From assembly GCA_964602865.1 (NCBI GenBank), contig CAZRSX010000003.1, positions 65,288 through 129,287 of the forward strand: a stretch of DNA of 64,000 nucleotides, read 5' to 3'. The position numbers and the translations under genes are program-made. This DNA is from an uncultured Candidatus Saccharibacteria bacterium. Its GTDB lineage: Bacteria; Patescibacteriota; Saccharimonadia; Saccharimonadales; JAGQNJ01. Below the pieces are notes generated by a model, which searched no databases, was not told where the DNA came from, and saw nothing but the letters and a program-made list of their open reading frames with translations. Positions 22,455 to 45,570 of the stretch are shown here, in pieces (the first letter of the stretch is position 1; every line of letters starts with the position of its first letter).

Positions 22455-22493
22455 GATTCGAACCCCGCGTATGTTAAAATCAGAATTATTTAT

Positions 22494-22567
22494 TGGGGAT
22501 TGGCCAAGTGGTAAGGCAACGGGTTCTGGTCCCGTGATCGGGGGTTCGAATCCCTCATCCCCAGCCA
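22494..22567 (+). tRNA. tRNA-Gln (anticodon CUG), CCA encoded
   Basis: Hand-folded: acceptor TGGGGAT/ATCCCCA with the U1-A72 pair typical of tRNA-Gln; D-arm GCCAAGTGGTAAGGC; anticodon arm ACGGG-TTCTGGT-CCCGT; T-arm GGGGG-TTCGAAT-CCCTC; discriminator G + CCA. Close to E. coli tRNA-Gln2 in layout. Confidence 0.9.
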
Positions 22568-27286: not shown

Positions 27287-27325
27287 CAACAACAAGGTAC
27301 CGCAATAATTATAGAAGTCTAGGCT

Positions 27326-27999: not shown

Positions 28000-28479
28000 T
28001 TATAGCTCATTTTCCTTCTTGAACTGCTCTTTTAGCTCCTTTCTGACACTAGCCTTAAATTCCTCAGGATCATGACCTGCAATACGAATCGCTTCATCGA
28101 CACCAATTAGGTTAATTAGCTCATCCAGTAACCTCTGCATGCTTCGAATCTCTCCCTTGTGTCGCAAGTTTTCTTCTAAATATAGCCTTATCGCATGAGG
28201 TCGATACTTTTTGCTGTTGTGCCTTAGTACGAAGGATATCGCCTGCTGATTATTATTGCTGACATTCTCGTATAGCTTCGACTCCGCAAAGTCACTAATC
28301 TTGTCCCGGCCTCGTTCAATAGCGATCGCTACCATTTCCCTGAAGGCCGGGTCTTGATCTCGCCACCTATAAAAAGTCGCTCTTGATATCTTAAGTCTGT
28401 TACATGCCCTGGTAACAAGTGGATTTTCCTCAAGTTCCTTTAATAGCCCGACTTTTTTATCACGAGTTTTTCTTGCCAT
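28000..28479 (-). CDS. HTH DNA-binding protein (phage terminase-small-subunit-like / regulator)
   Basis: 159 aa. LVTRACNRLKISRATFYRWRDQDPAF is a helix-turn-helix. Overlaps the upstream methylase gene end by 20 nt. Confidence 0.5.
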   Translation of the reverse strand: MARKTRDKKVGLLKELEENPLVTRACNRLKISRATFYRWRDQDPAFREMVAIAIERGRDKISDFAESKLYENVSNNNQQAISFVLRHNSKKYRPHAIRLYLEENLRHKGEIRSMQRLLDELINLIGVDEAIRIAGHDPEEFKASVRKELKEQFKKENEL

Positions 28480-29806: not shown

Positions 29807-30008
29807 AATTTTGTCCTCCAGTGTCGCAATCGGAAATAAAAATACTCCTGCCATTGACGACTTAGTTGTTATATAACTAGGCCCTTTGTCAATTCGCAGG
29901 AGCGTTAGCTCAACTGGATTGTCACGCGGTATAGCGTATTAACTACAGTATAGCACTAATGTGCTTATGTGCATGGGTTTTTGTCTGGGAACAGAGGTGT
30001 TTTTAGGG

Positions 30009-30014
30009 TATAAT
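30009..30014 (+). promoter_or_regulatory. candidate -10 box (TATAAT) for the plus-strand operon
   Basis: GGGTATAATATTG lies about 40 nt upstream of the 30054 start codon. No good -35 at canonical spacing. Confidence 0.3.
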
Positions 30015-30053
30015 ATTGTGTAATATGACTGTCTATTTTGAAGAGGCCACAAA

Positions 30054-32846
30054 ATGAGATTAAGCTTTTCTGACGTGCAACGAAACGTGTCTGAGATAGC
30101 TAATCGTCAAAGCTACTCAATTGATGTCCTATACGAGCTCATGGCTGCCTATGGCCGATCTGCCTCTTCAATTACAAAGCTACGCAACGGCATTATTAAT
30201 CTCGCCGAGGATAAACAAAGTACAGTACTTCAACGTGGAGTCGTTTATCTTAAGGATACTGGCTCCGTTGAAAGTCTACCTGCAGAGGTTGAAAAACTAG
30301 AGCAAGACCCTCTAACCGTGAGATACAACCCTCGCTTTCTAATTGCTACCGATTTTAAAACATTTGCGGCTAAAGACACCAAAAAAGGAAACACCCTCGA
30401 GATTGCATGGGAGGATATCGATAGAAATGTCGATTTCTTCTACGGGTGGACTGGCGATGAAGTAACAGACGAAAAGACAGAAGCCGTTGCCGATCGTCGT
30501 GCTGCCGACAAGATGAAAGAACTCTATTACGAAATAGAGAAAATAAATCGCGACAAGCTGGCCGAAAAAGGTAATACTTTCAGGCATGATCTGAATGTAT
30601 TTTTCACCCGTTTGCTGTTCTGTTTCTTTGCAGAAGACACGAAGGTCTTTAGCAAAGAGGACAAGAGTATTTTTACTAGTGCAATTAAAGACTACACGCT
30701 TACCGATGGTAGCGATCTGGACGAATTCCTCAACACACTATTCAGTGCGTTGGATAGCGAGGACAAGTCATCGTTCACAAGTCCGTTTTCTAACTTCCCA
30801 TATGTAAACGGAACACTTTTTGATACCACTCGCAACATAGCCATTCCTAAATTCAATGCCCAAGCACGTAAGTACATCTTGGATTGTGGATCTCTCAATT
30901 GGGCAGAAATTAATCCTGATATCTTTGGCTCTATGTTCCAGAGTATTGTGGACGAAGAACATCGAGCCACACACGGCCAACACTATACAAGCGTGCCAAA
31001 TATCATGAAAACAATCGAGCCTTTGTTTTTGGACGAGCTACGAGAAGAGTTCGACAAGCACTATGACAACCAATCTAAGCTTATAAAACTTCATGATCGG
31101 ATATCGAAGATCAAGATTTTTGACCCTGCTTGCGGCTCTGGCAACTTCTTGATTATTGCCTACAAAGAGCTACGCAAACTTGAGCATGCCATTATCGAAC
31201 GGCTCTATGAGGATGATTTCAAAAAAGCAGCGCTTGCAGGTAGACTTTCTACGCGCATTGACCTAGATAACTTTTATGGCATCGAGATTGATGATTTTGC
31301 TTGCGAGGTTGCGGTACTGTCACTATACCTAGCCAAACATCAAATGAACATTGAGTTTGAAAAGCAGTTTGGTAAAGAAATAAAGCTTATTCCACTCAAA
31401 GACAAGGCCAATATACATCATGGCAACTCAACAAGGGTAAATTGGCAAGAGGTATGTCCTAACATAGAGCACACTATTGACGTCCATCGGGCACATGAAC
31501 AAAGTACTCTCATTGAATTTGATGATAAGCAACCAACTTTGGAGCTAGGTCAAAAATATTGGGACGAAATATATCTAATCGGTAACCCACCATACCTTGG
31601 GTCAAGTTTGCAGGACGCAGATCAAAAAAGAGACATGACCCATGTGTTCTCTTCGTTTGGCAACTACAAGAACTTAGACTTGATTGCAGCTTGGTTTAAG
31701 TTAGGTGCTGATTATATACATGGCTCAAAGGCAAAGCTGGCATTTGTGTCAACAAACTCAATATGTCAGGGTGAACAAGTCGCTCTTCTTTGGCCGTATA
31801 TCTTTGACAAGGATGTCGAAATTGGCTTTGCGCATTCTTCGTTTAAGTGGAAGAATGGAGCACGAGATGTAGCGGGTGTAACGGTAGTAATTATCGGCTT
31901 ACAGTCATTGAGCAATGACACTAAGTACATATATAACGGTGGCATTCGCTCTGAAGCCAGCCACATTAATGCTTATTTGAGCGAAGGCGATAACATAATT
32001 GTAGTTAAGCGCACAAAACCATTATCGAACATTCCTAGAATGGGCTATGGATGCAAGCCTGTTGATGGTGGTCATCTTATATTTGATACCGAGACTAAAC
32101 AAAAAGTAGTATCTGAGGATCCAGGTATAGAGAAGTACATTAAGAAATTTGTTAGCGGCCAAGACTACCTCAATCAAAAAACAAGATGGTGTCTTTGGAT
32201 ATCTGATGCAGATTTTGCTGAAGCGTATAAGCATAACTTCATAAAAGAACGTGTCGATGCAGTACGCGAATTCAGGCTGGGCAGAAAAGATAAAGGTGCT
32301 CAGGATATGGCTAAAAAGCCCTATCAGTTTAGAGAGTTTGTCATGCCACCAGAAAACTCAATTATCGTTCCTTCCACATCATCCGAAAGACGAGAATATG
32401 TACCCTTTGGATATATTGAGGTGGGCACAATCGTTAATAATGCTTCATTTGTACTTTCAAATGCACCTCTTCATATATTTGGCCTTATTAGCTCAAGGAT
32501 GCATATGATCTGGATGCGAGCCGTATCCGGAAAGCTAAAGACGGACTATAGATATTCGTCGTCTCTTGTATACAACACTTTCCCATTCCAACCATCAAGC
32601 AGTCAACTAGAGGAAATTTCTAGCAAAGCCCGTAATGTCATATTCGCCAGACAAAATCATTCTGAAAAAACTCTAGCTGAAATGTACGATCCAGATAAGA
32701 TGCCAAACGATGTACGCGAAGCACATCAGGAGCTGGACTTAGTTGTTGATCAAATTTATCGTGCAAAACCATATGGATCTGACGAAGAAAGACTAGCAGA
32801 CCTATTTGAACTTTATGAACAAATGGTAGAAAGAGAGAAGAAATAA
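30054..32846 (+). CDS. MmeI-family (type IIL / YeeA / PglX-like) N6-adenine DNA methyltransferase
   Basis: 930 aa. MmeI-type N-terminal region (RFLIATDFKTFAAKD...LEIAWEDIDRNVDFFYGWTG), motif I FDPACGSGNFLI, motif IV GNPPYLG, long C-terminal TRD-like region. Confidence 0.8.
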   Translation: MRLSFSDVQRNVSEIANRQSYSIDVLYELMAAYGRSASSITKLRNGIINLAEDKQSTVLQRGVVYLKDTGSVESLPAEVEKLEQDPLTVRYNPRFLIATDFKTFAAKDTKKGNTLEIAWEDIDRNVDFFYGWTGDEVTDEKTEAVADRRAADKMKELYYEIEKINRDKLAEKGNTFRHDLNVFFTRLLFCFFAEDTKVFSKEDKSIFTSAIKDYTLTDGSDLDEFLNTLFSALDSEDKSSFTSPFSNFPYVNGTLFDTTRNIAIPKFNAQARKYILDCGSLNWAEINPDIFGSMFQSIVDEEHRATHGQHYTSVPNIMKTIEPLFLDELREEFDKHYDNQSKLIKLHDRISKIKIFDPACGSGNFLIIAYKELRKLEHAIIERLYEDDFKKAALAGRLSTRIDLDNFYGIEIDDFACEVAVLSLYLAKHQMNIEFEKQFGKEIKLIPLKDKANIHHGNSTRVNWQEVCPNIEHTIDVHRAHEQSTLIEFDDKQPTLELGQKYWDEIYLIGNPPYLGSSLQDADQKRDMTHVFSSFGNYKNLDLIAAWFKLGADYIHGSKAKLAFVSTNSICQGEQVALLWPYIFDKDVEIGFAHSSFKWKNGARDVAGVTVVIIGLQSLSNDTKYIYNGGIRSEASHINAYLSEGDNIIVVKRTKPLSNIPRMGYGCKPVDGGHLIFDTETKQKVVSEDPGIEKYIKKFVSGQDYLNQKTRWCLWISDADFAEAYKHNFIKERVDAVREFRLGRKDKGAQDMAKKPYQFREFVMPPENSIIVPSTSSERREYVPFGYIEVGTIVNNASFVLSNAPLHIFGLISSRMHMIWMRAVSGKLKTDYRYSSSLVYNTFPFQPSSSQLEEISSKARNVIFARQNHSEKTLAEMYDPDKMPNDVREAHQELDLVVDQIYRAKPYGSDEERLADLFELYEQMVEREKK

Positions 32847-32848
32847 AC

Positions 32849-34822
32849 ATGAGCAACGCAACTATAAATATTATCGAAAACACCTACGGGCAAACTGGGC
32901 AAAGTAAAAAGACGAATAATCTTGGTATGCGTGAGATGCAGGAAAAGGCTTACGAGCTGCGTAAAAGCAAGCACCTGTTGATTAAGGCACCTCCTGCTTC
33001 GGGTAAATCTCGTGCACTCATGTACATAGCACTCGACAAGCTTCACAATCAAGGATTGAAGAAAGTCATCGTAGCCGTACCCGAAACATCCATTGGTGCA
33101 TCATTCTCAAATACTAACCTGTCTGATGGTGGATTCTTCACGGATTGGACAGTAGAACCACGCAACAACCTATGTGCAGGTTCGGGTGATGACAAAAGTA
33201 AAGTAAGTGCGTTCATACGCTTCATGCAAAGTGACGATCAAATACTAGTCTGTACGCATGCAACACTAAGATTCGCCTTCGAAGAAATAAACCCGAGCGA
33301 CTTTAATGATTGTGTACTCGCGATAGACGAATTCCATCACGTTTCTACTAGTGACACTAGCCGACTTGGCGAGCTTGTACGTAACGTTATGCGCTCATCA
33401 AGCGTTCAAATGATTGCCATGACAGGTTCGTACTTCCGTGGAGATGCTGTGCCAATCTTACGAGCTGAAGATGAGATGGATTTTGACAAAGTCACCTACA
33501 CCTATTACGAGCAATTAAACGGCTATGAATACCTGAAAACTTTAGGCATTGGTTATCACTTTTATACTGGAAGCTACTTGGATAAAGGTGCTCTTGAGGC
33601 TGTACTAGACACAGAAAAGAAAACCATCATCCACATTCCAAATGTAAACTCCAAAGAGTCTACTCAGATTGGCAAGCATGAAGAAGTTCAACAGATATAT
33701 GGCCTAATTGGCGAGTGGCAAGAACAAAATCCTGATACTGGCATAGAAATTCTAAAGACTAGTGATGGCCGGTTACTCAAAGTCGCTAACCTTGTAGAAG
33801 ACGAGCCTATTCACAGAGCAAAGCTAGATAAGTATCTATCCGAAGTAGCTAAAGACGATATTGACGGTGTAGATATAATCATTGCCTTAGGTAAGGCAAA
33901 AGAGGGTTTTGATTGGCCGTTTTGTCAGCAAGCTCTAACTATCGGTTATAGGGCAAGCCTCACTGAAATAGTTCAAATTATCGGACGCTGTACACGCGAT
34001 AGTTATAACAAATCACACGCACAATTTACTAACCTCATTGTTCAACCAAACGGCACCCAAGACGATGTTCAGGTGTCGGTAAACAATATGCTTAAAGCAA
34101 TTACAGCATCTTTACTCATGGAACAAGTTCTTGCACCAAACTTCACATTCAAACCAAGAACGTCTCCTACTCAAAAAACCCAAGCGGGTGAAGTATTCGT
34201 TAAAGGTCTCAAGCAACCGCCTAATGAAAAGGTTAAGCGAATTCTAGAAACAGAACTCGAAGACTTAACAGCTGCCGTACTTCAAGACACACAGTACCAA
34301 CGTTCAGTTGCTGCTGATCATCCACCAGAATATCGTAAGCACCTTCAATCAAAGATTATTCGCGAAAAACTTCCCGGTCTAACCGACGAAGAAGTTGAAG
34401 TAACACGACAATACCTTGCAAGCAACCTTGCGTTTAAGACAGGAAAAATTACTGAGGATGGTGGCAAGAAGTTCATTACGATGGCCAGTAGCTTCGTAAA
34501 CCTTGATGAACTAACAATTGATCTAATTGATTCAATTAATCCGTTCCAACATGCTTTTGAAGTCATATCCAAGAAAGTTGGGACAGACGTGTTCCGAGTT
34601 ATACAGGATACTATTGCAGGTTCAAGAATAGATATGTCTGATGAGGACGCTTTGGCACTTGTTCCTCAAATCAAGGCTTTTGTAGTTGCCCATAATGGTA
34701 AGTATCCGATGCTGAATTCAAATGACAAGAATGAGAAGTTATTAGCACAGGCTCAAGCATATCTCACAGCTAGATATGCCCAAGTTCAGCGAGATAGACA
34801 GCAAGGTGGCGAAAATGGCTAA
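32849..34822 (+). CDS. SF2 DEAD/DEAH-type helicase (YeeB-like)
   Basis: 657 aa. Motif I KAPPASGKSRAL, motif II AIDEFHHV, motif VI QIIGRCTRD. Starts 2 nt after the methylase stop. Confidence 0.8.
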   Translation: MSNATINIIENTYGQTGQSKKTNNLGMREMQEKAYELRKSKHLLIKAPPASGKSRALMYIALDKLHNQGLKKVIVAVPETSIGASFSNTNLSDGGFFTDWTVEPRNNLCAGSGDDKSKVSAFIRFMQSDDQILVCTHATLRFAFEEINPSDFNDCVLAIDEFHHVSTSDTSRLGELVRNVMRSSSVQMIAMTGSYFRGDAVPILRAEDEMDFDKVTYTYYEQLNGYEYLKTLGIGYHFYTGSYLDKGALEAVLDTEKKTIIHIPNVNSKESTQIGKHEEVQQIYGLIGEWQEQNPDTGIEILKTSDGRLLKVANLVEDEPIHRAKLDKYLSEVAKDDIDGVDIIIALGKAKEGFDWPFCQQALTIGYRASLTEIVQIIGRCTRDSYNKSHAQFTNLIVQPNGTQDDVQVSVNNMLKAITASLLMEQVLAPNFTFKPRTSPTQKTQAGEVFVKGLKQPPNEKVKRILETELEDLTAAVLQDTQYQRSVAADHPPEYRKHLQSKIIREKLPGLTDEEVEVTRQYLASNLAFKTGKITEDGGKKFITMASSFVNLDELTIDLIDSINPFQHAFEVISKKVGTDVFRVIQDTIAGSRIDMSDEDALALVPQIKAFVVAHNGKYPMLNSNDKNEKLLAQAQAYLTARYAQVQRDRQQGGENG

Positions 34823-35972
34823 AGATTTAACTGATGATTTAATCAAACTATTTGAATCTGATGATGGTAAATTATTTGTTCCCAAAGAAAAACCGACTGC
34901 ACCAACGGCAGATGATAGGTTAGCTGAATCATTCCAGAAAATTATAGAATTTGTTGAAGAAAATGATCGTCAGCCAGACATTGAATCTAATGATATAAAC
35001 GAAGCAATGCTAGCCAAGCGCCTTGAATCAATTAAGAATAATCCTGAAAAAGTTGAAGCACTAGAATCGTACGATTCACTCGGACTGCTTGTAACCCCAG
35101 AAGCCCCGGAGAGTGTAGAAGAATTATTTGATAAAGACGAATTTGGCTTATTCAGCGGAGTCGGTGCTGAGGTGCTGAACGTTAAGCACGTTCCTTTAAC
35201 TCCTCGTGCTCAAGCAGATGAAGTTGCTAGAAGAACCAGAGCTGAAGATTTTGATTCCTTCAAAGAAGGCTTTATCGAAGTGCAAAACGATTTGAAGTCT
35301 GGTAAACAAAAACTCGTTACTTTTACTAACGTAGAGCAAATAAAGCAAGGTCGTTATTTTGTGAGTGGTGGCCAGCTTTTATATGTGGCTAATATTGGTG
35401 AAGAAAAGCTTGTGCACGGACGCATGAAAAGCAGAATTCGTGCAATTTTCGAAAACGGCAGTGAGTCCAATATGTTTTTACGCTCACTCTCCAGTCAGCT
35501 CTATTATGACGGATACTGTGTTGTTGACGAACAGGAAATCTACGATAACGTAACGGACGATGATGATGTTAAGGGCTACATCTATATAGTGCGTTCACTC
35601 AGCGAAGATCCAAAAATTAGTACCATTGAAAACCTTTATAAAATTGGCTTCTCAAGAACCCCAGTTGCGAAGCGCATTTCTGGATCAAAGGATGATCCAA
35701 CATATCTGATGTCAGACCTTGAGCTAGTTGAAAGTTATCGAGTAACAGGCGATTATAACCCGCAGAAAGTAGAACATTTTATTCACCGTGTATTTGCGGA
35801 TGCTGCATTAGACGTAACTATTACCGACAAAAATGGGAGAGAATACACGCCTCGTGAGTGGTACTGTGTACCGATTCAAGCTGTGCGACACGCAGTTGAA
35901 TTAATCGATGGTGGCGAGATCGTTAACTACACTTACAATTCTGAAACTCAAGAAATGGTAGAGGCGAATTAG
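34815..35972 (+). CDS. T5orf172/MUG113-type GIY-YIG superfamily nuclease-like protein
   Basis: C-terminal GYIYIVRSLSED...LYKIGFSRTPVAKRI...REWYCVP. Start at ATG 34815 (MAKDLTDD), overlapping the helicase stop by 8 nt (ATGGCTAA). Confidence 0.6.
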   Translation: MAKDLTDDLIKLFESDDGKLFVPKEKPTAPTADDRLAESFQKIIEFVEENDRQPDIESNDINEAMLAKRLESIKNNPEKVEALESYDSLGLLVTPEAPESVEELFDKDEFGLFSGVGAEVLNVKHVPLTPRAQADEVARRTRAEDFDSFKEGFIEVQNDLKSGKQKLVTFTNVEQIKQGRYFVSGGQLLYVANIGEEKLVHGRMKSRIRAIFENGSESNMFLRSLSSQLYYDGYCVVDEQEIYDNVTDDDDVKGYIYIVRSLSEDPKISTIENLYKIGFSRTPVAKRISGSKDDPTYLMSDLELVESYRVTGDYNPQKVEHFIHRVFADAALDVTITDKNGREYTPREWYCVPIQAVRHAVELIDGGEIVNYTYNSETQEMVEAN

Positions 35973-36208
35973 TGATGAGTAGCTGTGTTTGCTCTGTTTG
36001 TGGCCACGATGAGGATAAATGCACATTCGATGAGAATTATCGACGAGCCAAAGAGCTTATCGGATTCAAGAAAAATGCATCAGCTGCCTTGCTTCAACGA
36101 GACTTAAAGATTAGCTACGTGAAATCAGTTGAAATATTAGAAGAGCTAGAATCAGAGGGACTGATCGGTCCGGCTGACGGCGCAAATCCAAGGACGGTTA
36201 ATCTCTAA
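35972..36208 (+). CDS. small Cys-cluster + FtsK-gamma-like winged-helix protein
   Basis: 78 aa. CVCSVCGHDEDKC, then ASAALLQRDLKISYVKSVEILEELESEGLIGPADGANPRTV, which tracks the FtsK/SpoIIIE gamma-domain consensus (S.LQR.l.IGY.RA..i.d.mE..GiVgP..G...R.V). Start GTG 35972 or ATG 35975. Confidence 0.55.
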   Translation: MMSSCVCSVCGHDEDKCTFDENYRRAKELIGFKKNASAALLQRDLKISYVKSVEILEELESEGLIGPADGANPRTVNL

Positions 36209-37866
36209 TGACCGTATCTCATACAACAGAAGAATATGAACAGCATCAACAAGCGAGAGCTGATTATTCTAAGCAAGTATTAAGCTCTTCTTCGAATAAG
36301 CGTTTAGTAATGGCGGGCCCAGGAACCGGTAAAAGCTTCCTCTTTCAGCAAGTAGCAAAAAATCTACGTGAGCAAGGTAAAGATAAAATTCTTGTCCTAA
36401 CATTCATCAATGAATTAGTGAAAGATCTTGCAATTGATATGCATGGATTGGCAGAAGTATCTACCCTGCATAGCTTCGCAGCCAAGAAGCTTAGAAGTCG
36501 CCAAAGTATTTATCTGGACTTATTATCTGTTGTTTCAAATGATTATAAAATCGAAGGCAATGGGGAGGTTAAGTTCCCACCCATCCTTAACAATTTAAAA
36601 ATATCAGAACATGAATGTGAACTAGAGTATCTCAGCAAAAGAAGACAATATTACGAGGCTTATGATGCAACAACAATTGTTTACGATCTGGTTAATTCAT
36701 ATCAAGCAGATAGCAATAAAATCCCGACATATGATCTGATAATGATTGATGAATATCAGGATTTCAATGAACTAGAGGCGGCATTAATTGAATTATTATC
36801 GACAAAGAGTCCTGTGTTAATAGCTGGTGATGATGATCAGTCATTGTATTCTTTTAAACATTCAAAACCTGAAAATATACGCACTATGCATGCGAATGAT
36901 GATTACGAAACTTTCGAACTCCCTTACTGTTCAAGAAGTACTAAAGTAGTCATAGATGCGTTTCACGATTTCCTTACATCGGCACAATCTAATGGGTATC
37001 TCAACGGTAGAGTTAGCAAGCAGTATTTGTACTTCCCGGATGCAAAAAAAGACAAGTATTCAAACACATACCCAGCAATTGAAATTCGAAAAGAAATATA
37101 CGAAACCAAGAATGCTTGCATGATTGACCAATCCATTAAGTCAATATTTGAGTTTGAGCCTGAATTCGATGTATTGATTATATGTCCTCTGAAAAAACAG
37201 ATCCCCAAAATTGCCGAAGCACTTCGAAAAAAAGGTTACACGAATATTTCTGGCGATGAAAAAACAGGAGTTATCAAACGATTACTTGCAGAAGGCCTTC
37301 ACTTGTTATTTGAGAATAAGGACTCAAATCTAGGATGGAGATTATGCGCAGAGGCACTGTTAGATGAAGGTGTTTTTGAGGACGCGGTTAATAAAAGTGC
37401 CGACCTTCAGACAGCATTTAAGGATTGTCTTCCTAGGGATGCAGTAGCGCTAATCAAGAAGCTTCGGGCAATTTCGGTAAAGCTTCAGGATGGTACGGAA
37501 ATTAATGCCCAAGATCAGGAACTAATATTCGAGAAGCTGGGCATTCAACCAGATAAGCTTGGAGAGGCATTTGCAAAAGACATAATCTTCGGCTCTGCTT
37601 TATCAGGAGATTTACACTGTTCAGTTAAGATCAAGATAACTACGATCCTCGGCTCAAAGGGTCTTTCGTATGACTATGTCTTTATGGTTAATTTTGACGA
37701 CAGGTATCTACTTACACAAGACGGGTCTCAAGTGGATGACGAAAGTATTAATAAATTTCTTGTTGCACTGACACGCTCTCGTAAAAAAATATCAATATAC
37801 ACAAGCAAAACTACAGAGCCTACATTTGTTGCATGGATTAATGATGAGAGGAAGTTGGTCCTATAA
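36208..37866 (+). CDS. UvrD/Rep-like SF1 helicase / AAA ATPase
   Basis: 552 aa. Walker A AGPGTGKSF, LIMIDEYQDFN, IAGDDDQSLY, GSKGLSYDYVFMV, VALTRSRKK. TAATG start/stop overlap. Confidence 0.75.
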   Translation: MTVSHTTEEYEQHQQARADYSKQVLSSSSNKRLVMAGPGTGKSFLFQQVAKNLREQGKDKILVLTFINELVKDLAIDMHGLAEVSTLHSFAAKKLRSRQSIYLDLLSVVSNDYKIEGNGEVKFPPILNNLKISEHECELEYLSKRRQYYEAYDATTIVYDLVNSYQADSNKIPTYDLIMIDEYQDFNELEAALIELLSTKSPVLIAGDDDQSLYSFKHSKPENIRTMHANDDYETFELPYCSRSTKVVIDAFHDFLTSAQSNGYLNGRVSKQYLYFPDAKKDKYSNTYPAIEIRKEIYETKNACMIDQSIKSIFEFEPEFDVLIICPLKKQIPKIAEALRKKGYTNISGDEKTGVIKRLLAEGLHLLFENKDSNLGWRLCAEALLDEGVFEDAVNKSADLQTAFKDCLPRDAVALIKKLRAISVKLQDGTEINAQDQELIFEKLGIQPDKLGEAFAKDIIFGSALSGDLHCSVKIKITTILGSKGLSYDYVFMVNFDDRYLLTQDGSQVDDESINKFLVALTRSRKKISIYTSKTTEPTFVAWINDERKLVL

Positions 37867-39345
37867 ATGACTCTAAGTAAGTCAGACTACACAACCTATT
37901 TAAAACACCCTGCTTGGCTTTGGATCAAGAAACACGCTAAGACTATCCTCCCACCTATAGACCCTGCAACTCAAGCGATCTTTGATACCGGCCACGAATT
38001 TGAGCAATACGCAGAAGCTCTTTTCCCGGGTGGCGTAACTCTTGGATTTAATGACTACGACGAATACATATCATTGCCCGACAGGACTACCCAGGCCCTT
38101 GATGAAGGTATCCTCACGATCTTCCAGGGTCGCTTCGAACACAAGCAGTTAACCTTTATTTGCGATGTTATTCAGGTGGTTGGTAATAAGGAAGTAGACC
38201 TAATTGAGATCAAATCCAGTACCAGTGCCAAGCCAGAGCATGTGGTTGATCTCGCATTCCAGATGGTAGTTCTGGAGAAATGCGGCTACAGTGTGCGAAA
38301 TATATCCGTCATTCATGTAAACAATCAGTATGTTCGCAGTGGTGCAGTCGATGCAAAGTCCATTACTGCAAGAACTGACGTTACTGAAAGCGTTAAGGCT
38401 GCTCGTGAGTCTACTCTACAAAAAATAGATGAAGCACTCGAAGTACTGGCATTGACCGAATGCCCCGATGTGTCGCCGCTTCACGCTGATTCAAAGTCTT
38501 TTGGAGAATGGCTGGATATTTATAAGCATCTAAAGAATCCGAAGCCGGGCAGTATATTTGATTTATGCCAAATGGATGCCAAAACATTACGGAATCTACA
38601 AGCCAGTAACATCACTCATATAAAGGACATCCCCGCAGATTTTGTACTGAAACCAAAACAAAGATTGCAGGTTGAAGCCTTACGTCAAGGTCATCCAACA
38701 ATTCAAGCTGACAAGATTAAAGAATTTCTAGGCTCATTCGAATATCCCTTATATTTTTTCGATTACGAAACTCTGGGCAGCCTTGTGCCTTATTTTGACG
38801 GCTTAAAGCCTTATCAACAGTTGCCATTCCAATACTCGCTCCATACCCTAGATAGCCCCGACTCAGAACTAAGACACGAAGAATTTCTGCATCGTGATAG
38901 TGCCAACCCTGCCCAACCGCTTACAGAAGCATTGATTTCTCACATTGGAAATAAAGGAACGATCATCACCTGGAACATGGGCTTTGAGAAAAACTGTAAT
39001 AATCTAATCGGTAGTCTTCTGCCAGAACATGCTGAATTCTACGAAAATCTGAATAGCCGCATTGTTGATCTGATGACTCCGTTCTCAAAAAATTGGTTCG
39101 TAGATGCTGATTTCTGTGGTAGTGCATCGATTAAAAAAGTGTTGCCAGTGCTAGTGCCGGAACTTTCTCATAAAATGCTAGATATTTCTGATGGTAGTAC
39201 TGCCCAGCGACTTTGGATGGAAGCCGTTCTTGACGGAAAACGTCCAGACGAAAAAGAAAAGATTCTTACCGACCTACTCGATTACTGCAAACTTGACACC
39301 CTTGCAATGGTTGAAATCTGGAGAGTGTTAAGTAAATTGAGTTAG
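37867..39345 (+). CDS. DUF2779-like protein: N-terminal PD-(D/E)XK nuclease + C-terminal RNase H-fold exonuclease-like domain
   Basis: 492 aa. CDVIQVV...VDLIEIKSS is a D...ExK motif. YFFDYETL, TWNMGFEKN and LDYCKLDTLAM are DEDD-like motifs. Starts immediately after the upstream stop. Confidence 0.65.
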   Translation: MTLSKSDYTTYLKHPAWLWIKKHAKTILPPIDPATQAIFDTGHEFEQYAEALFPGGVTLGFNDYDEYISLPDRTTQALDEGILTIFQGRFEHKQLTFICDVIQVVGNKEVDLIEIKSSTSAKPEHVVDLAFQMVVLEKCGYSVRNISVIHVNNQYVRSGAVDAKSITARTDVTESVKAARESTLQKIDEALEVLALTECPDVSPLHADSKSFGEWLDIYKHLKNPKPGSIFDLCQMDAKTLRNLQASNITHIKDIPADFVLKPKQRLQVEALRQGHPTIQADKIKEFLGSFEYPLYFFDYETLGSLVPYFDGLKPYQQLPFQYSLHTLDSPDSELRHEEFLHRDSANPAQPLTEALISHIGNKGTIITWNMGFEKNCNNLIGSLLPEHAEFYENLNSRIVDLMTPFSKNWFVDADFCGSASIKKVLPVLVPELSHKMLDISDGSTAQRLWMEAVLDGKRPDEKEKILTDLLDYCKLDTLAMVEIWRVLSKLS

Positions 39346-39347
39346 CT

Positions 39348-40187
39348 ATGGCAAGATTTTACTGCACCGTCCCCAATCTTGATATAACGACTCAAGTAAC
39401 AGATGTAAAGTTAGCCGATAATGTCAGCAAAGTAGTGCTGTCTAATTCGAGATTATCTGCAGAATTGCCGAATGGACTGTCTGACAAGATTTATGACAAG
39501 ATATCTAAACAGGTTAGAATTATATATTCGTTTTGCTTTGAAGAAGTTTATCCAGAAAGTTATGACATAGACGAGCCAAGCACTTCAATTGGCGTTGGTG
39601 GACATGATGAAAGGAAAGAGCACCTCCTTGTATACTCAGGCAGCCCGAGAGACGAGTTTAAGGAAATATCATCTGCTCTATTCGAAGACCTTCTGAAGCT
39701 AGAGATTGGACAAAAAGATAAGCGACAACTATTTAATCTTATGTTTATATGGGCTAGAGCGAAGGAATTAGAAGAATTAAAATTGATGGTCGAGGCATAT
39801 ACCCAGTATTGGCGAATATTGGATCTAATTAAGGCTAAGGGTAACAAGGCGGCGGCGGTTAAACTACTGCAGAGCCTATCGCTAGAGCAAACCACATCTA
39901 ATATTGCTGCTGCAAAAATTGAAATGGTTATGCGACCACAAGCTAAAAAATATTCTAAGGATAATATAGAGATGATTTCTTATCTTGATAGCTTAAGGCA
40001 TCCGCATGCTCACAAACCCTCCAGAAGCGAGGACTACTATCTTGAAGAAATATCGACTCATTTGGATGCAGAAATGAATAATATCTTCATCGCAGACATA
40101 TCAAGACTTTATGTTCTATGGACTGTTGGGCTTAAAAAATATTATCTGAAACCAAGAGCAAACATTTACGAACTAGCTAAGCGTTAA
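39348..40187 (+). CDS. hypothetical protein (possible HEPN-like R-x4-H motif)
   Basis: 279 aa, predicted helical. Contains LRHPHAH (R-x4-H), which is weak evidence. Starts 2 nt after the upstream stop. Confidence 0.45.
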   Translation: MARFYCTVPNLDITTQVTDVKLADNVSKVVLSNSRLSAELPNGLSDKIYDKISKQVRIIYSFCFEEVYPESYDIDEPSTSIGVGGHDERKEHLLVYSGSPRDEFKEISSALFEDLLKLEIGQKDKRQLFNLMFIWARAKELEELKLMVEAYTQYWRILDLIKAKGNKAAAVKLLQSLSLEQTTSNIAAAKIEMVMRPQAKKYSKDNIEMISYLDSLRHPHAHKPSRSEDYYLEEISTHLDAEMNNIFIADISRLYVLWTVGLKKYYLKPRANIYELAKR

Positions 40188-40230
40188 AACGCAAGTGTTT
40201 ATCACCTTATCTACTGATACAATATAGTAA

Positions 40231-41151
40231 ATGTCTCTATACAAAATCAGCGAATCAAAGCTAAAACCAGTATCGGCTAAAGATTTCAAACTTGAGCGCG
40301 ATTCACAACGACTTATCGAATCTAATATCGAGGAAGTATTCGGACTGAAGTTTGTTGATACAGAATTCCAGCTCAATGGCCTGCGTGTTGATACATTAGC
40401 ATTCGACGAGGAAACAAACAGCTTTGTAGTTATTGAATACAAGCGTGATCGTAGCTCTAGCGTCATAGACCAAGGGTATTCGTATCTAGCTCTTGTTCTA
40501 AACAACAAGGCTGACTTTGTCTTGCGTTATAACGAAACACAAAAAGCTAGTCTCACTAAGTCCGATATAGATTGGAGCGCAACACGAGTTATATTTGTTG
40601 CTGCTCGTTTTACTACTCATCAACTTGGTTCAATTAACTTTCAAGACTTACCGATTGAACTATGGAAAGCCCAATTATTTGAAGGCGGTATGATCAGTAT
40701 CGAGCAACAACTGGCGGACAAACAAGCAGAATCTATCAAAACCGTCACCAAGAAATCTACAACTACCGACAGTGTTGTTGAAGAAATTCGTACCTATAGT
40801 GTGAACGATCTTATAAAAGAAGATTACCCGTCCAAGTCTCTATATGAAGAGTTGTCTACAAGAATTTTAGAACTTGACTCAAATTTCACAGAATCACCCA
40901 AGAAGGGCTACATTGGCTTCAAACTCGGTACAAAATTAGTTGTTGCTGTCGTACCTCAACGTAATCGTTTAGTACTAGAGCTGAATCGAACGAGACCCGA
41001 GGACGTAGATGATCCAAAAGGACTCGTTGAGCTTATACCTAAAAGTCTAGAGCATAAGAATCGATACATTAGTCGTATCTTTATTGAAGACATTGGTGTC
41101 ATCAACTACGCAATGACACTTGTTGAGCAAGTGTATAAAAGACATCTATAA
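40231..41151 (+). CDS. NucS/DUF91-like PD-(D/E)XK nuclease with C-terminal DUF5655-like region
   Basis: 306 aa. VDTLAFDEETNSFVVIEYKRD is a D...E-x-K core. C-terminal KKGYIGFKLGTKLVVAVVPQRNRLVLEL resembles DUF5655 from memory; unverified. Confidence 0.55.
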   Translation: MSLYKISESKLKPVSAKDFKLERDSQRLIESNIEEVFGLKFVDTEFQLNGLRVDTLAFDEETNSFVVIEYKRDRSSSVIDQGYSYLALVLNNKADFVLRYNETQKASLTKSDIDWSATRVIFVAARFTTHQLGSINFQDLPIELWKAQLFEGGMISIEQQLADKQAESIKTVTKKSTTTDSVVEEIRTYSVNDLIKEDYPSKSLYEELSTRILELDSNFTESPKKGYIGFKLGTKLVVAVVPQRNRLVLELNRTRPEDVDDPKGLVELIPKSLEHKNRYISRIFIEDIGVINYAMTLVEQVYKRHL

Positions 41152-41170
41152 ATTGGCGTAAAATGTAAGT

Positions 41171-42364
41171 GTGTACACACATCTCAAAGAACGCCAATTT
41201 TACGAAGATATCTACGATAAACACACTGTAGAGTCTGGTCGTCGTGGCATGGTTCATTATGAGAAGTTCTATAAAGAACTCGAAGCGAAGCTCGACAAAG
41301 ACGATACTATCGACAGGCCGGGTAATGCAATCCTACTCAATGCTTTTTATATGCAAATTATCGGCCTTGAGCTACTTGAGCGCTATGAAAACCGAGAACA
41401 ATACATTACCGACTGGATGGCCAAGGACGAAGTTAAAGACGAGCAAATTACCTCAGCAAGGCTGAGCGAAGAGCCGTACTGCCACAACTGTGGCAAGCAA
41501 GGGCTTAGGATTATAGACAAATCACTGATGCACCGAAGCAAGACCTATAAAATCGGCGATCCTGAAGAAGTCCTATTTATGCTTCGCTGTCCGCATTGCG
41601 AGAAGAACAGTGCCTTTTGGGAAGACGGCACTGCTTGGAAGGTAAAGCCAACCGTCTGTCCAAAATGTAAATCAGAAGTGACGCATAAGACTACTAAGAC
41701 CAAGAAAGCCATCACAATCACTTATACCTGCACCTCTTGCAAACATAGCTTCAAAGACAAGATGGATCTTACTGAAAAGAAAGAAGAACCTGACCCCAAT
41801 TTTGATAAAGACCGTGCTCATTTCTGTTTGTGGGACAAGGAGTTCCGCGAGCATGTATTTGCCACCAAGAAGGGCTTTGAAGACATGGCTCGGCTTGGTA
41901 AAGAGATGAAAGAAAAGCAAGACAATAAACATCTCTACGATGCTATAAAAGAGATTAAGAAGCCAAAGATCGCTGAGCTATCTACTATTCTGGCTCCCGC
42001 ACTGGAAAAGGCCGGATATATTGAATTTCACTTGGATAAACCCGAAATGGGACGAGATGTTTATATCGGCTTCAGCTGTCTAGATAGCAAAAGTGACCGA
42101 AACGACTACGATAGCGAAAAGACCTTAAGGAAGACTGTTCAGGCCGCGCTGACAGATACTAATTGGCGACTTATGAGTGACGGCATACATTACAGGCTCG
42201 GATACCTGAACGGACGACTACGAGCCTACGAGCGCGAAGAAGATCTTAAGAATTTAGTCGAGAAGGATATTAAGGCCGGTAAGCTCGTGCCAAAGGCTCC
42301 TAAACCTGCCGATAAAGACCCCAATACTCTCTTAGCACCTGACGGTACGAAGATAATACTATGA
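41171..42364 (+). CDS. hypothetical protein with two CxxC...CxxC zinc ribbons
   Basis: 397 aa (GTG start; next in-frame ATG at 41249). CHNCGK...CPHCEK and CPKCKS...CTSCKH. Lys/Glu-rich. Confidence 0.45.
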   Translation: MYTHLKERQFYEDIYDKHTVESGRRGMVHYEKFYKELEAKLDKDDTIDRPGNAILLNAFYMQIIGLELLERYENREQYITDWMAKDEVKDEQITSARLSEEPYCHNCGKQGLRIIDKSLMHRSKTYKIGDPEEVLFMLRCPHCEKNSAFWEDGTAWKVKPTVCPKCKSEVTHKTTKTKKAITITYTCTSCKHSFKDKMDLTEKKEEPDPNFDKDRAHFCLWDKEFREHVFATKKGFEDMARLGKEMKEKQDNKHLYDAIKEIKKPKIAELSTILAPALEKAGYIEFHLDKPEMGRDVYIGFSCLDSKSDRNDYDSEKTLRKTVQAALTDTNWRLMSDGIHYRLGYLNGRLRAYEREEDLKNLVEKDIKAGKLVPKAPKPADKDPNTLLAPDGTKIIL

Positions 42365-42386
42365 CATTCTGAGAATGTAAGTTAAG

Positions 42387-42821
42387 GTGACAAGCACCAT
42401 GACAGATTTATCAATCTATATGACATCCATCGGCAACGATGACTACCAGATGTTTATCAAGAACAATAACTCTGAAACAGACTTTATTAGGATTGTTATT
42501 GGTTATACAGAAATAGTTAAAGGCGAACGGGTTGGCAAGGTAGTCAACAGCTGGATTATCTCTCCGCTGCAAAGCTATGGAGAGCATGTTTTTGTTCAAT
42601 CAGCCAATAAGCACATGATGCAGGGCAAACGATTATGGGTTGCCTTTGAGGCATTGAAGCGAAGTAAACCGAAGAATACATTGGTTGGTAGTTTTATGGC
42701 ATTATCGCCAACAGGCAGTAAATGGCGCAATACAGTTGGCTCGTCTACATATTTCGATATCAAGGCCATAGATTCCCTAAGAAGTCTAGAAAAACCACTC
42801 GAAATAGCTCAGATTGCCTAG
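42387..42821 (+). CDS. hypothetical protein
   Basis: 144-aa ORF (GTG 42387 or ATG 42399), last gene of the co-directional block. No recognisable motif. Confidence 0.4.
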   Translation: MTSTMTDLSIYMTSIGNDDYQMFIKNNNSETDFIRIVIGYTEIVKGERVGKVVNSWIISPLQSYGEHVFVQSANKHMMQGKRLWVAFEALKRSKPKNTLVGSFMALSPTGSKWRNTVGSSTYFDIKAIDSLRSLEKPLEIAQIA

Positions 42822-43156: not shown

Positions 43157-43190
43157 TCTTGTGATGCGAGTTCGAATTCCCGATCAAAAG

Positions 43191-43293
43191 TGATCGGGGT
43201 GAGAAATGCCGGTGGCATTTCGCAAGGAAACCTTCCTCTGAAAACTTGTTTTCAAAAGTGAAGTTTCGGGCTCGCCGAAGGTGAGTCGAATCC
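43191..43293. repeat. right copy of 103-bp direct repeat (DR-R)
   Basis: 101/103 identical to 22352-22454 (see DR-L). Confidence 0.9.
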
Positions 43294-43307
43294 CTCATCC
43301 CCAGCCA
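43191..43307 (+). pseudogene. tRNA-Gln-like 3' portion (variable loop, interrupted T-arm, acceptor 3' strand and CCA); attR-like junction
   Basis: TGATCGGGG + insertion + GTCGAATCCCTCATCCCCAGCCA. The last 22 nt (43286-43307) are identical to the 3' end of the intact tRNA-Gln (22546-22567). No matching 5' acceptor strand is found nearby. Confidence 0.65.
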
Positions 43308-45510: not shown

Positions 45511-45570
45511 ATTATTCTTGAAGATCTAGGTAGCGGTTACATCAAAATTCTGCCCACAATTTCCGGCAAA

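What the first reader, a model, noticed from the sequence alone, without database searches (positions are those of the whole stretch)
35972..39345. Standalone FtsK-gamma-like DNA-reader coupled to a UvrD-like helicase and a DUF2779 dual nuclease
The 78-aa protein combines a Cys cluster (CVCSVCGHDEDKC) with a segment (ASAALLQRDLKISYVKSVEILEELESEGLIGPADGANPRTV) that follows the FtsK/SpoIIIE gamma wHTH consensus almost residue for residue. In FtsK this domain reads the polar chromosomal KOPS motifs. Here it is detached. Its gene overlaps the start of a UvrD-like helicase gene, which abuts a gene for a PD-(D/E)XK plus DEDD-like exonuclease protein. Hypothesis: a sequence- or polarity-sensing loader directs a helicase-nuclease machine. 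That would discriminate self from non-self by oligomer skew rather than by methylation, conceptually like Chi/RecBCD. I know of no described defence system with this composition.
Basis: inference. Interest (0 to 1): 0.75.

Follow-up and report, generated by a model that had tools for sequence, protein, structure and literature searches.

The report
Free-standing FtsK-gamma reader in defence island
The three genes are real: a 77-residue zinc-knuckle plus FtsK-gamma DNA-binding protein, a short UvrD-like helicase and a two-nuclease DUF2779 protein. They are not a fixed three-part machine but separately shuffled add-ons that trail restriction-modification operons on mobile islands of ultra-small (Patescibacteria) bacteria.

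Summary
Observation confirmed. The small ORF (best start ATG 35975, 77 aa) carries an invariant CCHC knuckle and a true FtsK-gamma winged helix. The evidence is Pfam E=4e-16, an AF2 model whose best PDB matches are FtsK gamma domains, and dN/dS of 0.14. It abuts a UvrD-like SF1 helicase and a DUF2779 protein (Cas4-like nuclease plus DnaQ-like exonuclease).

Interpretation partly supported. The genes lie in a 10-gene defence array on a ~20.8-kb serine-recombinase island bounded by tRNA-Gln-derived repeats, probably in a Saccharibacteria genome. The triad recurs only in near-identical elements, and a sister element lacks the helicase entirely.

The gamma protein family (117 homologues, nearly all Patescibacteria) sits at the 3' end of about 17 different RM or defence operons. 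These include types I, ISP, IIG and III, GmrSD and AIPR. DUF2779 lies next to it in about 7 of them. DUF2779, with or without UvrD, also trails RM operons without gamma (7 of 7 sampled).

Elsewhere, tandem gamma domains are fused to Mrr nuclease, TIR and DUF4062 effectors.

Best reading: these are modular RM accessories. UvrD plus DUF2779 is a RecBCD-like end processor, and gamma is a trans-acting DNA-recognition or regulatory factor. Reading of skewed motifs is untested, and the Arg that E. coli FtsK needs for KOPS recognition is a Glu here.

The parts
35975..36208 (+). 77-aa CCHC zinc-knuckle plus FtsK-gamma winged-helix protein (alternative GTG start at 35972)
   Evidence: Pfam FtsK_gamma E=4e-16. 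Family alignment with invariant C7, C10, H12, C17. AF2 model and Foldseek matches to FtsK gamma. Purifying selection. Start choice.
36208..37866 (+). 552-aa short UvrD/Rep-type SF1 helicase (GajB-like). Optional module, absent from sister element L037.
   Evidence: Pfam UvrD-helicase, AAA_19 and UvrD_C. PADLOC GajB E=1e-26 but no GajA in the island. Helicase motifs visible in the translation. Absence in L037.
37867..39345 (+). 492-aa DUF2779 protein: N-terminal Cas4/RecB-like PD-(D/E)XK nuclease plus C-terminal DnaQ/DEDD-like 3'-5' exonuclease
   Evidence: Pfam E=2e-37. Conserved catalytic residues. AF2 pLDDT 87 and fold matches to Cas4, Exo5, AdnAB, MAEL and DnaQ. Literature.
30054..32846 (+). 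MmeI-family type IIG restriction-modification enzyme, first gene of the same-strand array
   Evidence: All five MmeI Pfam domains. PADLOC REase_MTase_IIG E=3e-293.
32849..34822 (+). 657-aa DEAD/ResIII helicase, paired with the next gene
   Evidence: Pfam. The pair is conserved in L001, L037 and L053.
34776..35972 (+). 398-aa T5orf172/MUG113 (GIY-YIG-like) protein, immediately upstream of the gamma gene
   Evidence: Pfam.
39348..40187 (+). 279-aa protein with no family match, inside the array
   Evidence: No Pfam, PADLOC, NCBIfam or PHROG hit.
40231..41151 (+). PDC-S18 candidate defence protein (DUF5655)
   Evidence: PADLOC E=2e-97.
41171..42364 (+). 397-aa multi-CxxC protein ('Zn397'), a backbone gene of this island family that often lies directly after the gamma gene
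   Evidence: tblastn matches in L010, L013, L022, L045, L052 and L053.
42387..42821 (+). 144-aa protein with no family match, last gene before the right repeat. Also present in L006.
28000..29854 (-). ParB_N-N6/N4 DNA methyltransferase and small-terminase-like HTH gene. Phage-like backbone, also found convergent with the gamma gene in L006, L010, L038 and L051.
   Evidence: Pfam. PHROGs. Contexts.
25985..27295 (-). Large serine recombinase of the island
   Evidence: Resolvase, Recombinase and Zn_ribbon_recom domains.
22352..22567 (+). Left island boundary: 103-nt repeat copy (22352-22454) plus tRNA-Gln(CTG) at 22494-22567
   Evidence: Direct repeats D1 and D3. Alignment. ARAGORN and Rfam.
43191..43307 (+). 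Right island boundary: second copy of the 103-nt repeat (98% identical) fused to the 22-nt 3' end of tRNA-Gln
30009..30027 (+). Conserved 19-nt promoter-like element TATAATATTGTGTAATATG at the head of the array (-10-like box plus imperfect palindrome ATATT-N4-AATAT)
   Evidence: The same element heads the MmeI arrays of L001 and L037 and the unrelated type I array of L010/L023, with non-homologous flanks.

Best explanation
Shown:
- The three genes are parts of one long same-strand array of defence cargo (30054-42821).
- The array sits on a ~20.8-kb integrative island that carries a serine recombinase, a ParB-methyltransferase and a small-terminase-like gene. tRNA-Gln-derived direct repeats bound the island.
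- The closest relatives of the island genes checked (the gamma, helicase and DUF2779 genes) come from Saccharibacteria/Patescibacteria.
- The three genes assort independently. DUF2779 is a common trailer gene of RM operons of every type in these bacteria. The short UvrD-like helicase is an optional neighbour of DUF2779. The 77-aa knuckle-gamma protein is a strongly conserved small DNA-binding protein that rides at the 3' end of many different RM or defence operons, most often beside DUF2779.

Inferred:
- UvrD plus DUF2779 act as a RecBCD/AddAB-like helicase-nuclease. The Cas4-like domain would supply 5'-3' cutting, the DnaQ-like domain 3'-5' cutting, and the helicase unwinding. The pair would process or destroy the DNA ends produced by the upstream restriction enzymes.
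- The knuckle-gamma protein works in trans as a generic DNA-recognition or sensor subunit for the island's nucleases. It is not a helicase-specific loader. The window holds the fullest version of this kit.
For: Island and array:
- Direct repeats, tRNA and GC dip.
- Gene content.
- Intergenic gaps of 43 nt or less across 30054-42821.

Modularity:
- The window and L001 have gamma-UvrD-DUF2779. The sister element L037 has gamma-DUF2779 without the helicase.
- DUF2779 followed by gamma, usually with overlapping stop and start codons, occurs after PLD-SNF2 plus Eco57I-like methylase (L006), after GmrSD (L019), and after AIPR, Dcm and an AspBHI-like enzyme (L025/L042). It also occurs in L041 and L044.
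- UvrD plus DUF2779 without gamma follows PLD-SNF2/methylase (L032) and type I RM (L034).
- DUF2779 alone follows type I, IIG-like and III RM and a true Gabija pair.

Nuclease and helicase competence: catalytic motifs are conserved and the folds match.

Gamma as a DNA-binding accessory in defence:
- The fold matches FtsK gamma.
- The wing Arg (R74) is invariant and the Q-R...K-I-S-Y segment invariant or nearly so.
- Tandem gamma domains are fused to Mrr_cat (P0427, P0495, P0458), TIR_2 (P0477) and DUF4062 (P0493).
- Gamma is linked to cargo rather than to a fixed backbone slot. It lies on either side of the ParB-methylase/terminase-like module, and it occurs in loci with no backbone genes nearby (L002, L019).
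Against: - No direct evidence of any physical or functional contact among the three proteins. No multimer prediction could be run.
- Gamma's immediate neighbours are very diverse: T5orf172, DUF2779, HsdS, methylase, type III Res, DUF2130, YgjP-like, and a 517-aa HTH protein. That argues against a specific complex with the upstream product.
- Overlapping stop and start codons are the norm between most neighbouring genes in these compact genomes, so they carry little weight.
- Pairwise identities of gamma and DUF2779 are not correlated (r=0.19).
- DUF2779 is far more abundant than gamma: at least 4922 homologues against 117. It lacked gamma in 7 of 7 sampled contexts, so it does not need gamma.
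- A conserved promoter-like palindromic element heads gamma-containing arrays with different cargo. That fits a regulator at least as well as a nuclease adaptor.
- The sample is about 17 contexts and is not phylogenetically independent.
Confidence: 0.4

Rival explanations
1. The gamma protein reads a polar, strand-skewed chromosomal motif and loads or gates the UvrD-DUF2779 helicase-nuclease. Self and foreign DNA are then told apart as Chi does for RecBCD. The three genes form a dedicated system.
For: - The gamma stop codon overlaps the helicase start, and the helicase abuts DUF2779.
- In FtsK, gamma loads a motor at KOPS (PMC2680272).
- The DUF2779-gamma pairing recurs.
- Gamma-nuclease fusions exist.
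- E1303- and E1306-equivalent residues and the wing Arg are kept.
Against: - The triad is found only in the window's own element lineage.
- The helicase is missing in sister element L037.
- Gamma occurs without either partner in at least 7 contexts.
- The partners occur without gamma in 7 of 7 contexts.
- The R1300 equivalent is Glu and the N1296 equivalent is Ala or Val, whereas the host-type FtsK keeps GY(A/N)RAAR.
- Motif skew cannot be assessed on about 40 kb of host DNA.
Confidence: 0.12
2. The gamma protein is a transcriptional autoregulator of the cargo array. It would be functionally like RM controller (C) proteins, or like the BrxR/CapW regulators that co-localise with many defence systems. 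It would bind the conserved palindromic element that overlaps the array's -10 box.
For: - It is a small winged-helix protein with a family-wide conserved recognition helix despite variable cargo.
- A 19-nt element (TAyAATrTTrTsTAATATG, with ATrTT-N4-AATAT) heads the MmeI arrays (window, L001, L037) and the unrelated type I array (L010/L023), with non-homologous flanks. Promoter and gamma therefore frame variable cargo.
- The element is absent from the covered 5' regions of two gamma-less arrays, L032 and L034.
- The neighbour diversity fits a generic function.
Against: - Known defence regulators sit at the 5' end or divergent from the operon, not last in it (my own knowledge).
- The element resembles a general -10-N10-ATG leaderless promoter; a similar element appears at one unrelated position in L002/L021.
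- It is missing at the L013 array head.
- Only two independent cargo types carry it.
- FtsK gamma binds asymmetric G-rich 8-mers, not AT-rich palindromes.
- Regulators are not expected to be fused to Mrr or TIR effectors.
Confidence: 0.25
3. The gamma protein serves the mobile element rather than defence. It could be a DNA-recognition partner for packaging (with the terminase-like gene). It could be the detached reader of a gamma-less FtsK-type motor for element transfer. It could be a recombination directionality or Xer-activating factor, like XafT of TLC-phi.
For: - The gene lies convergent with and touching the small-terminase-like/ParB-methylase module in L006, L010, L038 and L051, and directly before backbone gene Zn397 in L013, L022 and L045.
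- Bacillus phages Sam46/Sam112 carry a gamma-TerS fusion, and single gamma genes occur in phages (PMC8190038; BFVD hits; PHROGs).
- Gamma-less FtsK motor paralogues occur in the same island family (L037, L053).
- Isolated gamma activates XerD (PMC3130261 abstract).
Against: - The gene changes side relative to the backbone together with the cargo.
- It also occurs where no backbone gene is within 8 kb (L002, L019).
- Only one IMG/VR contig carries a family member, and there is no hit in GenBank phages.
- The island uses a serine recombinase, not a Xer recombinase.
- The window's island has no FtsK motor and no large terminase.
Confidence: 0.13

Closest known systems
FtsK/SpoIIIE gamma domain (KOPS/SRS reader and XerD activator)
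   Same: Same Pfam family and the same three-helix winged fold. The segment QR..K/R-I-x-Y and the wing Arg are conserved.
   Different: It is free-standing, with no motor attached. It has an N-terminal CCHC knuckle. The R1300 equivalent is Glu and the N1296 equivalent is Ala or Val. It is encoded in RM/defence operons on a mobile island, not in a cell-division gene.
Single FtsK_gamma-like genes of phages, and the gamma-small-terminase fusion of Bacillus phages Sam46/Sam112
   Same: The gamma domain is detached from FtsK on a mobile element. The function of the single genes is stated to be unknown (PMC8190038). BFVD structural matches include 90-105-aa phage proteins and the Sam46 TerS.
   Different: The window's family has the CCHC knuckle, is essentially confined to Patescibacteria, and follows RM or defence genes. 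Only one predicted viral contig carries it.
RecBCD / AddAB / AdnAB helicase-nucleases with Chi recognition
   Same: The composition is parallel: an SF1 UvrD-type helicase plus a RecB/Cas4-family PD-(D/E)XK nuclease. AdnAB nuclease domains appear among the fold matches. A separate DNA-reading element is conceivable.
   Different: The proteins are separate and much smaller. There is an extra DnaQ-like exonuclease domain. The partners assort independently. No Chi-like motif is known, and no recognition pocket has been shown.
Gabija (GajA OLD-family nuclease plus GajB UvrD-like helicase)
   Same: The helicase scores best against GajB models (E=1e-26). Both pair a defence-island helicase with a nuclease.
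   Different: There is no GajA (ATPase-TOPRIM) in the window. The nuclease here is DUF2779. In L052 a true GajA-GajB pair is followed by DUF2779 as an additional gene.
DUF2779 / solo-Cas4-like proteins (for example MMSYN1_0389 of JCVI-syn3.0)
   Same: Same two-domain architecture and the same conserved Asp/Glu/Lys triad.
   Different: The Mycoplasma gene is quasi-essential and chromosomal. Here the gene is mobile-island cargo trailing RM systems.
RM controller (C) proteins and BrxR/CapW-type defence-island regulators
   Same: They are small or modular DNA-binding proteins associated with many different defence systems. A conserved palindromic element lies at the array's promoter.
   Different: The fold differs (gamma winged helix, not Xre HTH or wHTH-WYL). 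The gene is at the 3' end rather than the 5' end or divergent. No regulation has been shown.

Membership tests
FtsK_gamma domain (PF09397) | Profile score above the curated threshold | tested here: met
   58.9 bits against a cut-off of 30.6, E=4.1e-16.
FtsK_gamma domain (PF09397) | Three-helix winged-helix fold superimposable on solved gamma domains | tested here: met
   AF2 pLDDT 81. Top PDB hits are 2j5o, 2ve9 and 2j5p, with TM (target-normalised) 0.71-0.82 and rmsd 1.1-1.5 A.
FtsK_gamma as KOPS reader | Recognition residues R1300, E1303 and E1306 (E. coli numbering; PMC2680272) | tested here: not met
   They align to E54, E57 (D/E in the family) and E60. The Arg is replaced by Glu across the family, and N1296 by Val or Ala.
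FtsK/SpoIIIE translocase | Gamma domain covalently attached to an alpha-beta motor | tested here: not met
   The ORF is 77 aa, and no FtsK_SpoIIIE domain was found among the island proteins scanned. Motor-only paralogues exist in related islands L037 and L053.
UvrD/Rep SF1A helicase | UvrD-helicase, AAA_19 and UvrD_C profiles plus Walker A, motif II, motif III and motif VI | tested here: met
   Motifs GPGTGKS, DEYQD, GDDDQSLY and VALTRSRKK are visible in the translation. PDB sequence hits to Rep, UvrD and PcrA.
Gabija | GajA (ABC-ATPase plus OLD-type TOPRIM nuclease) encoded next to GajB | tested here: not met
   No AAA_15 or OLD_TOPRIM protein appears among the scanned island proteins. Compare L052, where both are present.
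DUF2779 (PF11074) dual nuclease | DUF2779 profile, a PD-(D/E)XK triad in the N-terminal half and DEDD-type acidic residues in the C-terminal half | tested here: met
   E=2e-37. Invariant D100, D111/E114/K116, D299/E301, E374 and Y473; D477 is nearly invariant in the wider alignment. Fold hits to Cas4, Exo5 and AdnAB and to MAEL and DnaQ are weak (E 2e-3 to 0.3).
RecBCD/AddAB-type helicase-nuclease | Stable helicase-nuclease complex with processive dsDNA-end degradation regulated by a Chi-like motif | not testable with these tools
   Only the composition is parallel. No complex prediction or biochemistry was possible.
RM controller (C) protein | Xre-type HTH protein encoded upstream of, or overlapping, the R gene, binding a C-box at its own promoter | tested here: not met
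   The fold is a gamma winged helix, not Xre. The gene is fourth in the array and 3' of the RM gene. A promoter palindrome exists, but binding is untested.
Xer activation factor / IMEX | Element integrated at dif by XerCD, with a factor that contacts XerD | tested here: inconclusive
   The island carries a large serine recombinase and tRNA-derived repeats, not a dif-like site. XerD contact was not testable.
Dedicated gamma-UvrD-DUF2779 system (as proposed) | Co-occurrence of the three genes across divergent genomes | tested here: not met
   The triad is found only in near-identical elements (L001, with UvrD 93% identical). L037 lacks UvrD. About 15 other gamma contexts lack UvrD. Seven DUF2779 or UvrD contexts lack gamma.

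The most novel reading that the evidence does not exclude
Knuckle-gamma proteins are the detachable DNA-reading subunit of a Patescibacteria immune layer. They would recognise a chromosome- or invader-specific short motif. They would then gate RM-linked nucleases (DUF2779 with or without UvrD, and others). That would make them a Chi-like or KOPS-like self/non-self signal, and the single-domain cousins of the gamma-gamma-Mrr and gamma-gamma-TIR sensor-effector fusions.
Probability: 0.12. Interest if true: 0.85.

Novelty: new variant of a known kind. Interest (0 to 1): 0.5.

Why it matters
The proposed new three-gene defence system does not hold up as a unit, but the survey turned up three things I could not find described in the searchable literature.

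- **A conserved gamma-only family.** A CCHC-knuckle plus FtsK-gamma family, specific to Patescibacteria, is tied to the 3' ends of RM and defence operons of many types.
- **DUF2779 as an RM trailer gene.** In organisms with minimal genomes, DUF2779 (sometimes with a short UvrD helicase) regularly follows RM systems. This suggests a portable substitute for RecBCD-type degradation after restriction.
- **Gamma-effector fusions.** Tandem gamma domains are fused to Mrr, TIR and DUF4062 effectors. The chromosome-polarity reader of FtsK has therefore been recruited repeatedly into conflict systems.

What single gamma genes do on mobile elements is an acknowledged open question (PMC8190038). This family gives a compact, testable case.

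Tried and rejected
- **E. coli genomes, megablast:** no match, so the window is not enterobacterial.
- **GenBank phages, tblastn with the 77-aa protein:** no match.
- **IMG/VR, single-sequence scans for gamma and for the helicase:** nothing. Profile scans gave one gamma contig and two DUF2779 contigs.
- **Sigma-70 promoter and terminator scan of the array:** counts no higher than in shuffled sequence, so uninformative.
- **DNA-level conservation around the gamma gene across 15 contexts:** homology stops at the CDS ends. There is no flanking conserved site that would mark a recombination core.
- **Co-evolution of gamma and DUF2779:** r=0.19, not significant.
- **PDB sequence searches for DUF2779 and Zn397:** nothing usable.
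- **Structure prediction with alignment A3:** It was redone with A4.
- **Gabija membership:** rejected because there is no GajA.
- **A fixed 'hotspot-flanking backbone gene' reading for gamma:** weakened. The gene switches side relative to the ParB-methylase/terminase-like module together with its cargo, and it occurs without backbone genes.
- **Skewed-motif test:** not attempted, because about 40 kb of host DNA is too little.
- **All context look-ups and large protein searches are used up.** The neighbourhood census therefore rests on about 17 gamma contexts and 7 gamma-less contexts.

Full report
**1. What is at the coordinates**

ORF listing confirms three abutting plus-strand genes: 35972-36208 (78 aa from GTG), 36208-37866 (552 aa) and 37867-39345 (492 aa).

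The small protein matches Pfam FtsK_gamma (E=4.1e-16, above threshold). An alignment of 28 family members shows invariant C7, C10, H12 and C17. That is a CCHC knuckle, C-x2-C-G-H-x4-C. The winged-helix part is highly conserved: A36, S37, L41, Q42, L45, K46, S48, Y49, E60, P67 and R74.

An AF2 model (pLDDT 81) superimposes best on solved FtsK gamma domains (2j5o, 2ve9, 2j5p; rmsd 1.1-1.5 A), ahead of MarR/GntR winged helices.

The gene is under strong purifying selection. dN/dS is 0.14 against the closest relative. Against the others, synonymous sites are saturated while pN stays at 0.11-0.20. Family members begin MS..C, so the likely start is ATG 35975, giving 77 aa.

The helicase carries UvrD-helicase, AAA_19 and UvrD_C domains and intact SF1 motifs. 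Its best PADLOC match is GajB.

The third protein is DUF2779 (E=2e-37). The acidic and Lys residues expected of a PD-(D/E)XK nuclease are conserved, as are those of a DEDD-type exonuclease. Its AF2 model (pLDDT 87) finds Cas4, Exo5 and AdnAB nuclease domains and MAEL and DnaQ exonuclease domains, with weak scores. Two papers reach the same two-nuclease reading.

**2. Surroundings**

The genes sit inside a same-strand array from 30054 to 42821 with intergenic gaps of 43 nt or less. In order, the array holds:
- an MmeI-type IIG RM enzyme;
- a DEAD/ResIII helicase;
- a T5orf172 (GIY-YIG-like) protein;
- the gamma protein, the UvrD-like helicase and DUF2779;
- a 279-aa orphan;
- a PDC-S18 homologue;
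- a 397-aa multi-CxxC protein (Zn397);
- a 144-aa orphan.

Upstream on the minus strand lie a ParB-N6/N4 methyltransferase, a small-terminase-like HTH protein, a large serine recombinase and a KAP NTPase.

GC drops to 0.39-0.44 here, against about 0.5 in the flanks. A 103-nt direct repeat (22352-22454 and 43191-43293, 98% identical) and the 22-nt 3' end of tRNA-Gln (22546-22567 = 43286-43307) bracket a ~20.8-kb island.

The window has no match in E. coli. The closest relatives of the gamma, helicase and DUF2779 proteins come from Saccharibacteria/Patescibacteria assemblies.

**3. Is the triad a unit?**

No. The gamma family has 117 homologues at 61-91% identity, all about 77 aa. I recovered about 17 distinct genomic contexts.

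| Context | Loci |
|---|---|
| gamma-UvrD-DUF2779 | window, L001 (same element, UvrD 93% identical) |
| gamma abutting DUF2779, no helicase | L037 (sister element, DEAD 97% and PDC-S18 92% identical) |
| gamma after PLD-SNF2, Eco57I-like methylase and DUF2779 | L006 |
| gamma after GmrSD and DUF2779 | L019 |
| gamma after AIPR, Dcm, an AspBHI-like enzyme and DUF2779 | L025/L042 |
| gamma after type I RM | L010; L002 (also with SduA and a YgjP-like gene) |
| gamma after type ISP, PIF1, AAA_13 and DUF2130 | L022 |
| gamma after an Eco57I/TaqI_C methylase | L038 |
| gamma after a type III Res-like enzyme | L051 |
| gamma after an S24 peptidase and a 517-aa HTH protein | L013 |

Contexts reached through the helicase or DUF2779 instead never contain gamma (7 of 7; the profile search was negative):
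- UvrD plus DUF2779 follows PLD-SNF2/methylase (L032) and type I RM (L034).
- DUF2779 alone follows IIG-like, type I and type III RM.
- DUF2779 follows a genuine GajA-GajB pair (L052).
- A 43%-identical helicase is paired with a PLD nuclease in a Mu-like prophage.

DUF2779 is therefore the hub. UvrD and gamma are optional, independently assorting neighbours, and the window holds the fullest combination. Pairwise identities of gamma and DUF2779 are not correlated (r=0.19).

**4. What the gamma protein might read**

Mapping onto E. coli FtsK gives these equivalents:
- R1300, needed for KOPS recognition, is Glu in the whole family.
- N1296 is Ala or Val.
- E1303, E1306 and the wing Arg are kept.

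True FtsKs mostly keep GY(A/N)RAAR, including the Saccharibacteria FtsK encoded next to one family member; one (L031) has Glu at the Arg position. The small protein therefore probably does not read the host's FtsK motif in the same way. This is an inference.

DNA homology among contexts ends at the CDS borders.

A 19-nt element, TAyAATrTTrTsTAATATG, contains an imperfect palindrome. It heads the MmeI arrays (window 30009-30027, L001, L037) and the unrelated type I array of L010, and the flanks are otherwise non-homologous. It may be a leaderless-type promoter, an operator, or both.

**5. The wider gamma world**

A profile search of 1.84 billion representative proteins found 12,958 hits. Many of the best are non-FtsK proteins of 150-250 aa with two or three tandem gamma domains. 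There are also knuckle-gamma variants: two knuckle-gamma units in P0378, and a knuckle-gamma unit plus a C-terminal zinc ribbon in P0379.

Pfam scans of 20 longer hits show tandem gamma domains fused to:
- Mrr_cat restriction nuclease (3 proteins);
- TIR_2 (1);
- DUF4062 (1);
- DUF4236, with or without DnaJ (4);
- short FtsK motors (6).

Phage proteins with this fold include 90-105-aa singletons and the gamma-small-terminase fusion of Bacillus phage Sam46. That paper states that the role of single gamma genes is unknown.

Related islands also encode gamma-less FtsK motor paralogues (L037, L053).

**6. Most likely mechanism**

*Shown:* modular assortment, intact catalytic motifs, and the defence-island context.

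*Inferred:*
- UvrD plus DUF2779 is a portable RecBCD/AddAB-like end processor. It would act on breaks made by the upstream restriction enzymes.
- The knuckle-gamma protein is a trans-acting DNA-recognition factor for the island's nucleases.

A regulatory role at the conserved promoter element is the main alternative. A role in the element's own packaging, transfer or recombination is a further possibility. I put these at about 0.40, 0.25 and 0.13.

**7. Novelty and verdict**

The domains and the single-gene classes are known. The triad is not a conserved system.

I did not find three things described in the literature I could search:
- the Patescibacteria knuckle-gamma family and its attachment to RM and defence operons;
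- DUF2779 (with or without UvrD) as a general RM trailer gene;
- the gamma-effector fusions.

This is a new variant of a known kind, of moderate interest (0.5). There is a small chance (about 0.12) of a notable self/non-self reading mechanism.

Noticed in passing
window 22309-22567 and 43130-43307: A tRNA-Gln-like 5' half (22309-22341, 88% identical to the start of the true tRNA-Gln) is followed by a ~103-nt segment. That segment is repeated at the right island end, where it runs into the 3' end of tRNA-Gln. An intact tRNA-Gln(CTG) at 22494-22567 lies just inside the left repeat. This suggests the island disrupted a tRNA-like target and carries a replacement tRNA.
   Followed up: partly
window 30054-35972; L001, L037, L053: An MmeI-type IIG enzyme, a 657-aa DEAD/ResIII helicase and a T5orf172 protein form a conserved trio. 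The helicase-T5orf172 pair also occurs without MmeI in an IMG/VR contig. This may be a second helicase-nuclease accessory module.
   Followed up: partly
window 30009-30027; L001 2029-2047; L037 2032-2050; L010 1992-2010: A conserved 19-nt promoter-like element with the imperfect palindrome ATrTT-N4-AATAT heads arrays with different cargo (MmeI versus type I RM). In L010 the ATG at its end is the hsdR start codon, which suggests a leaderless transcript.
   Followed up: partly
window 41171-42364: A 397-aa protein with four CxxC pairs and no family assignment is a recurrent backbone gene of this island family. It often lies directly downstream of the gamma gene (L013, L022, L045).
   Followed up: partly
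L037 14414-15487; L053 9798-11255: Motor-only FtsK/SpoIIIE paralogues (357 and 485 aa, with no transmembrane part and no gamma domain) are encoded in related islands, near or in place of Zn397. The island family thus holds both 'motor-only' and 'gamma-only' FtsK fragments.
   Followed up: partly
proteins P0427, P0495, P0458, P0477, P0493, P0400, P0426, P0468, P0483: Tandem FtsK-gamma domains are fused to Mrr_cat restriction nuclease, TIR_2, DUF4062 and DUF4236 (with or without DnaJ). These look like undescribed sensor-effector architectures.
   Followed up: partly
L052 3804-9509: A true Gabija pair (AAA_15 plus OLD-TOPRIM GajA, and UvrD-type GajB) is followed by DUF2779, a trypsin-like protease and a Zn397-like gene, all after an Eco57I-like methylase.
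   Followed up: no
window 22652-25906: A 1084-aa KAP-family P-loop NTPase lies at the left end of the island, next to the serine recombinase.
   Followed up: no
window 43390-47000: Low GC (0.43-0.44) continues for about 4 kb beyond the right repeat. This stretch includes a 706-aa protein with two alpha/beta-hydrolase domains. It may be a second, older insertion.
   Followed up: no
L034 13439-14848: A bAvd-like gene and a reverse transcriptase, resembling a diversity-generating retroelement, lie a few kb from the type I RM-UvrD-DUF2779 array.
   Followed up: no
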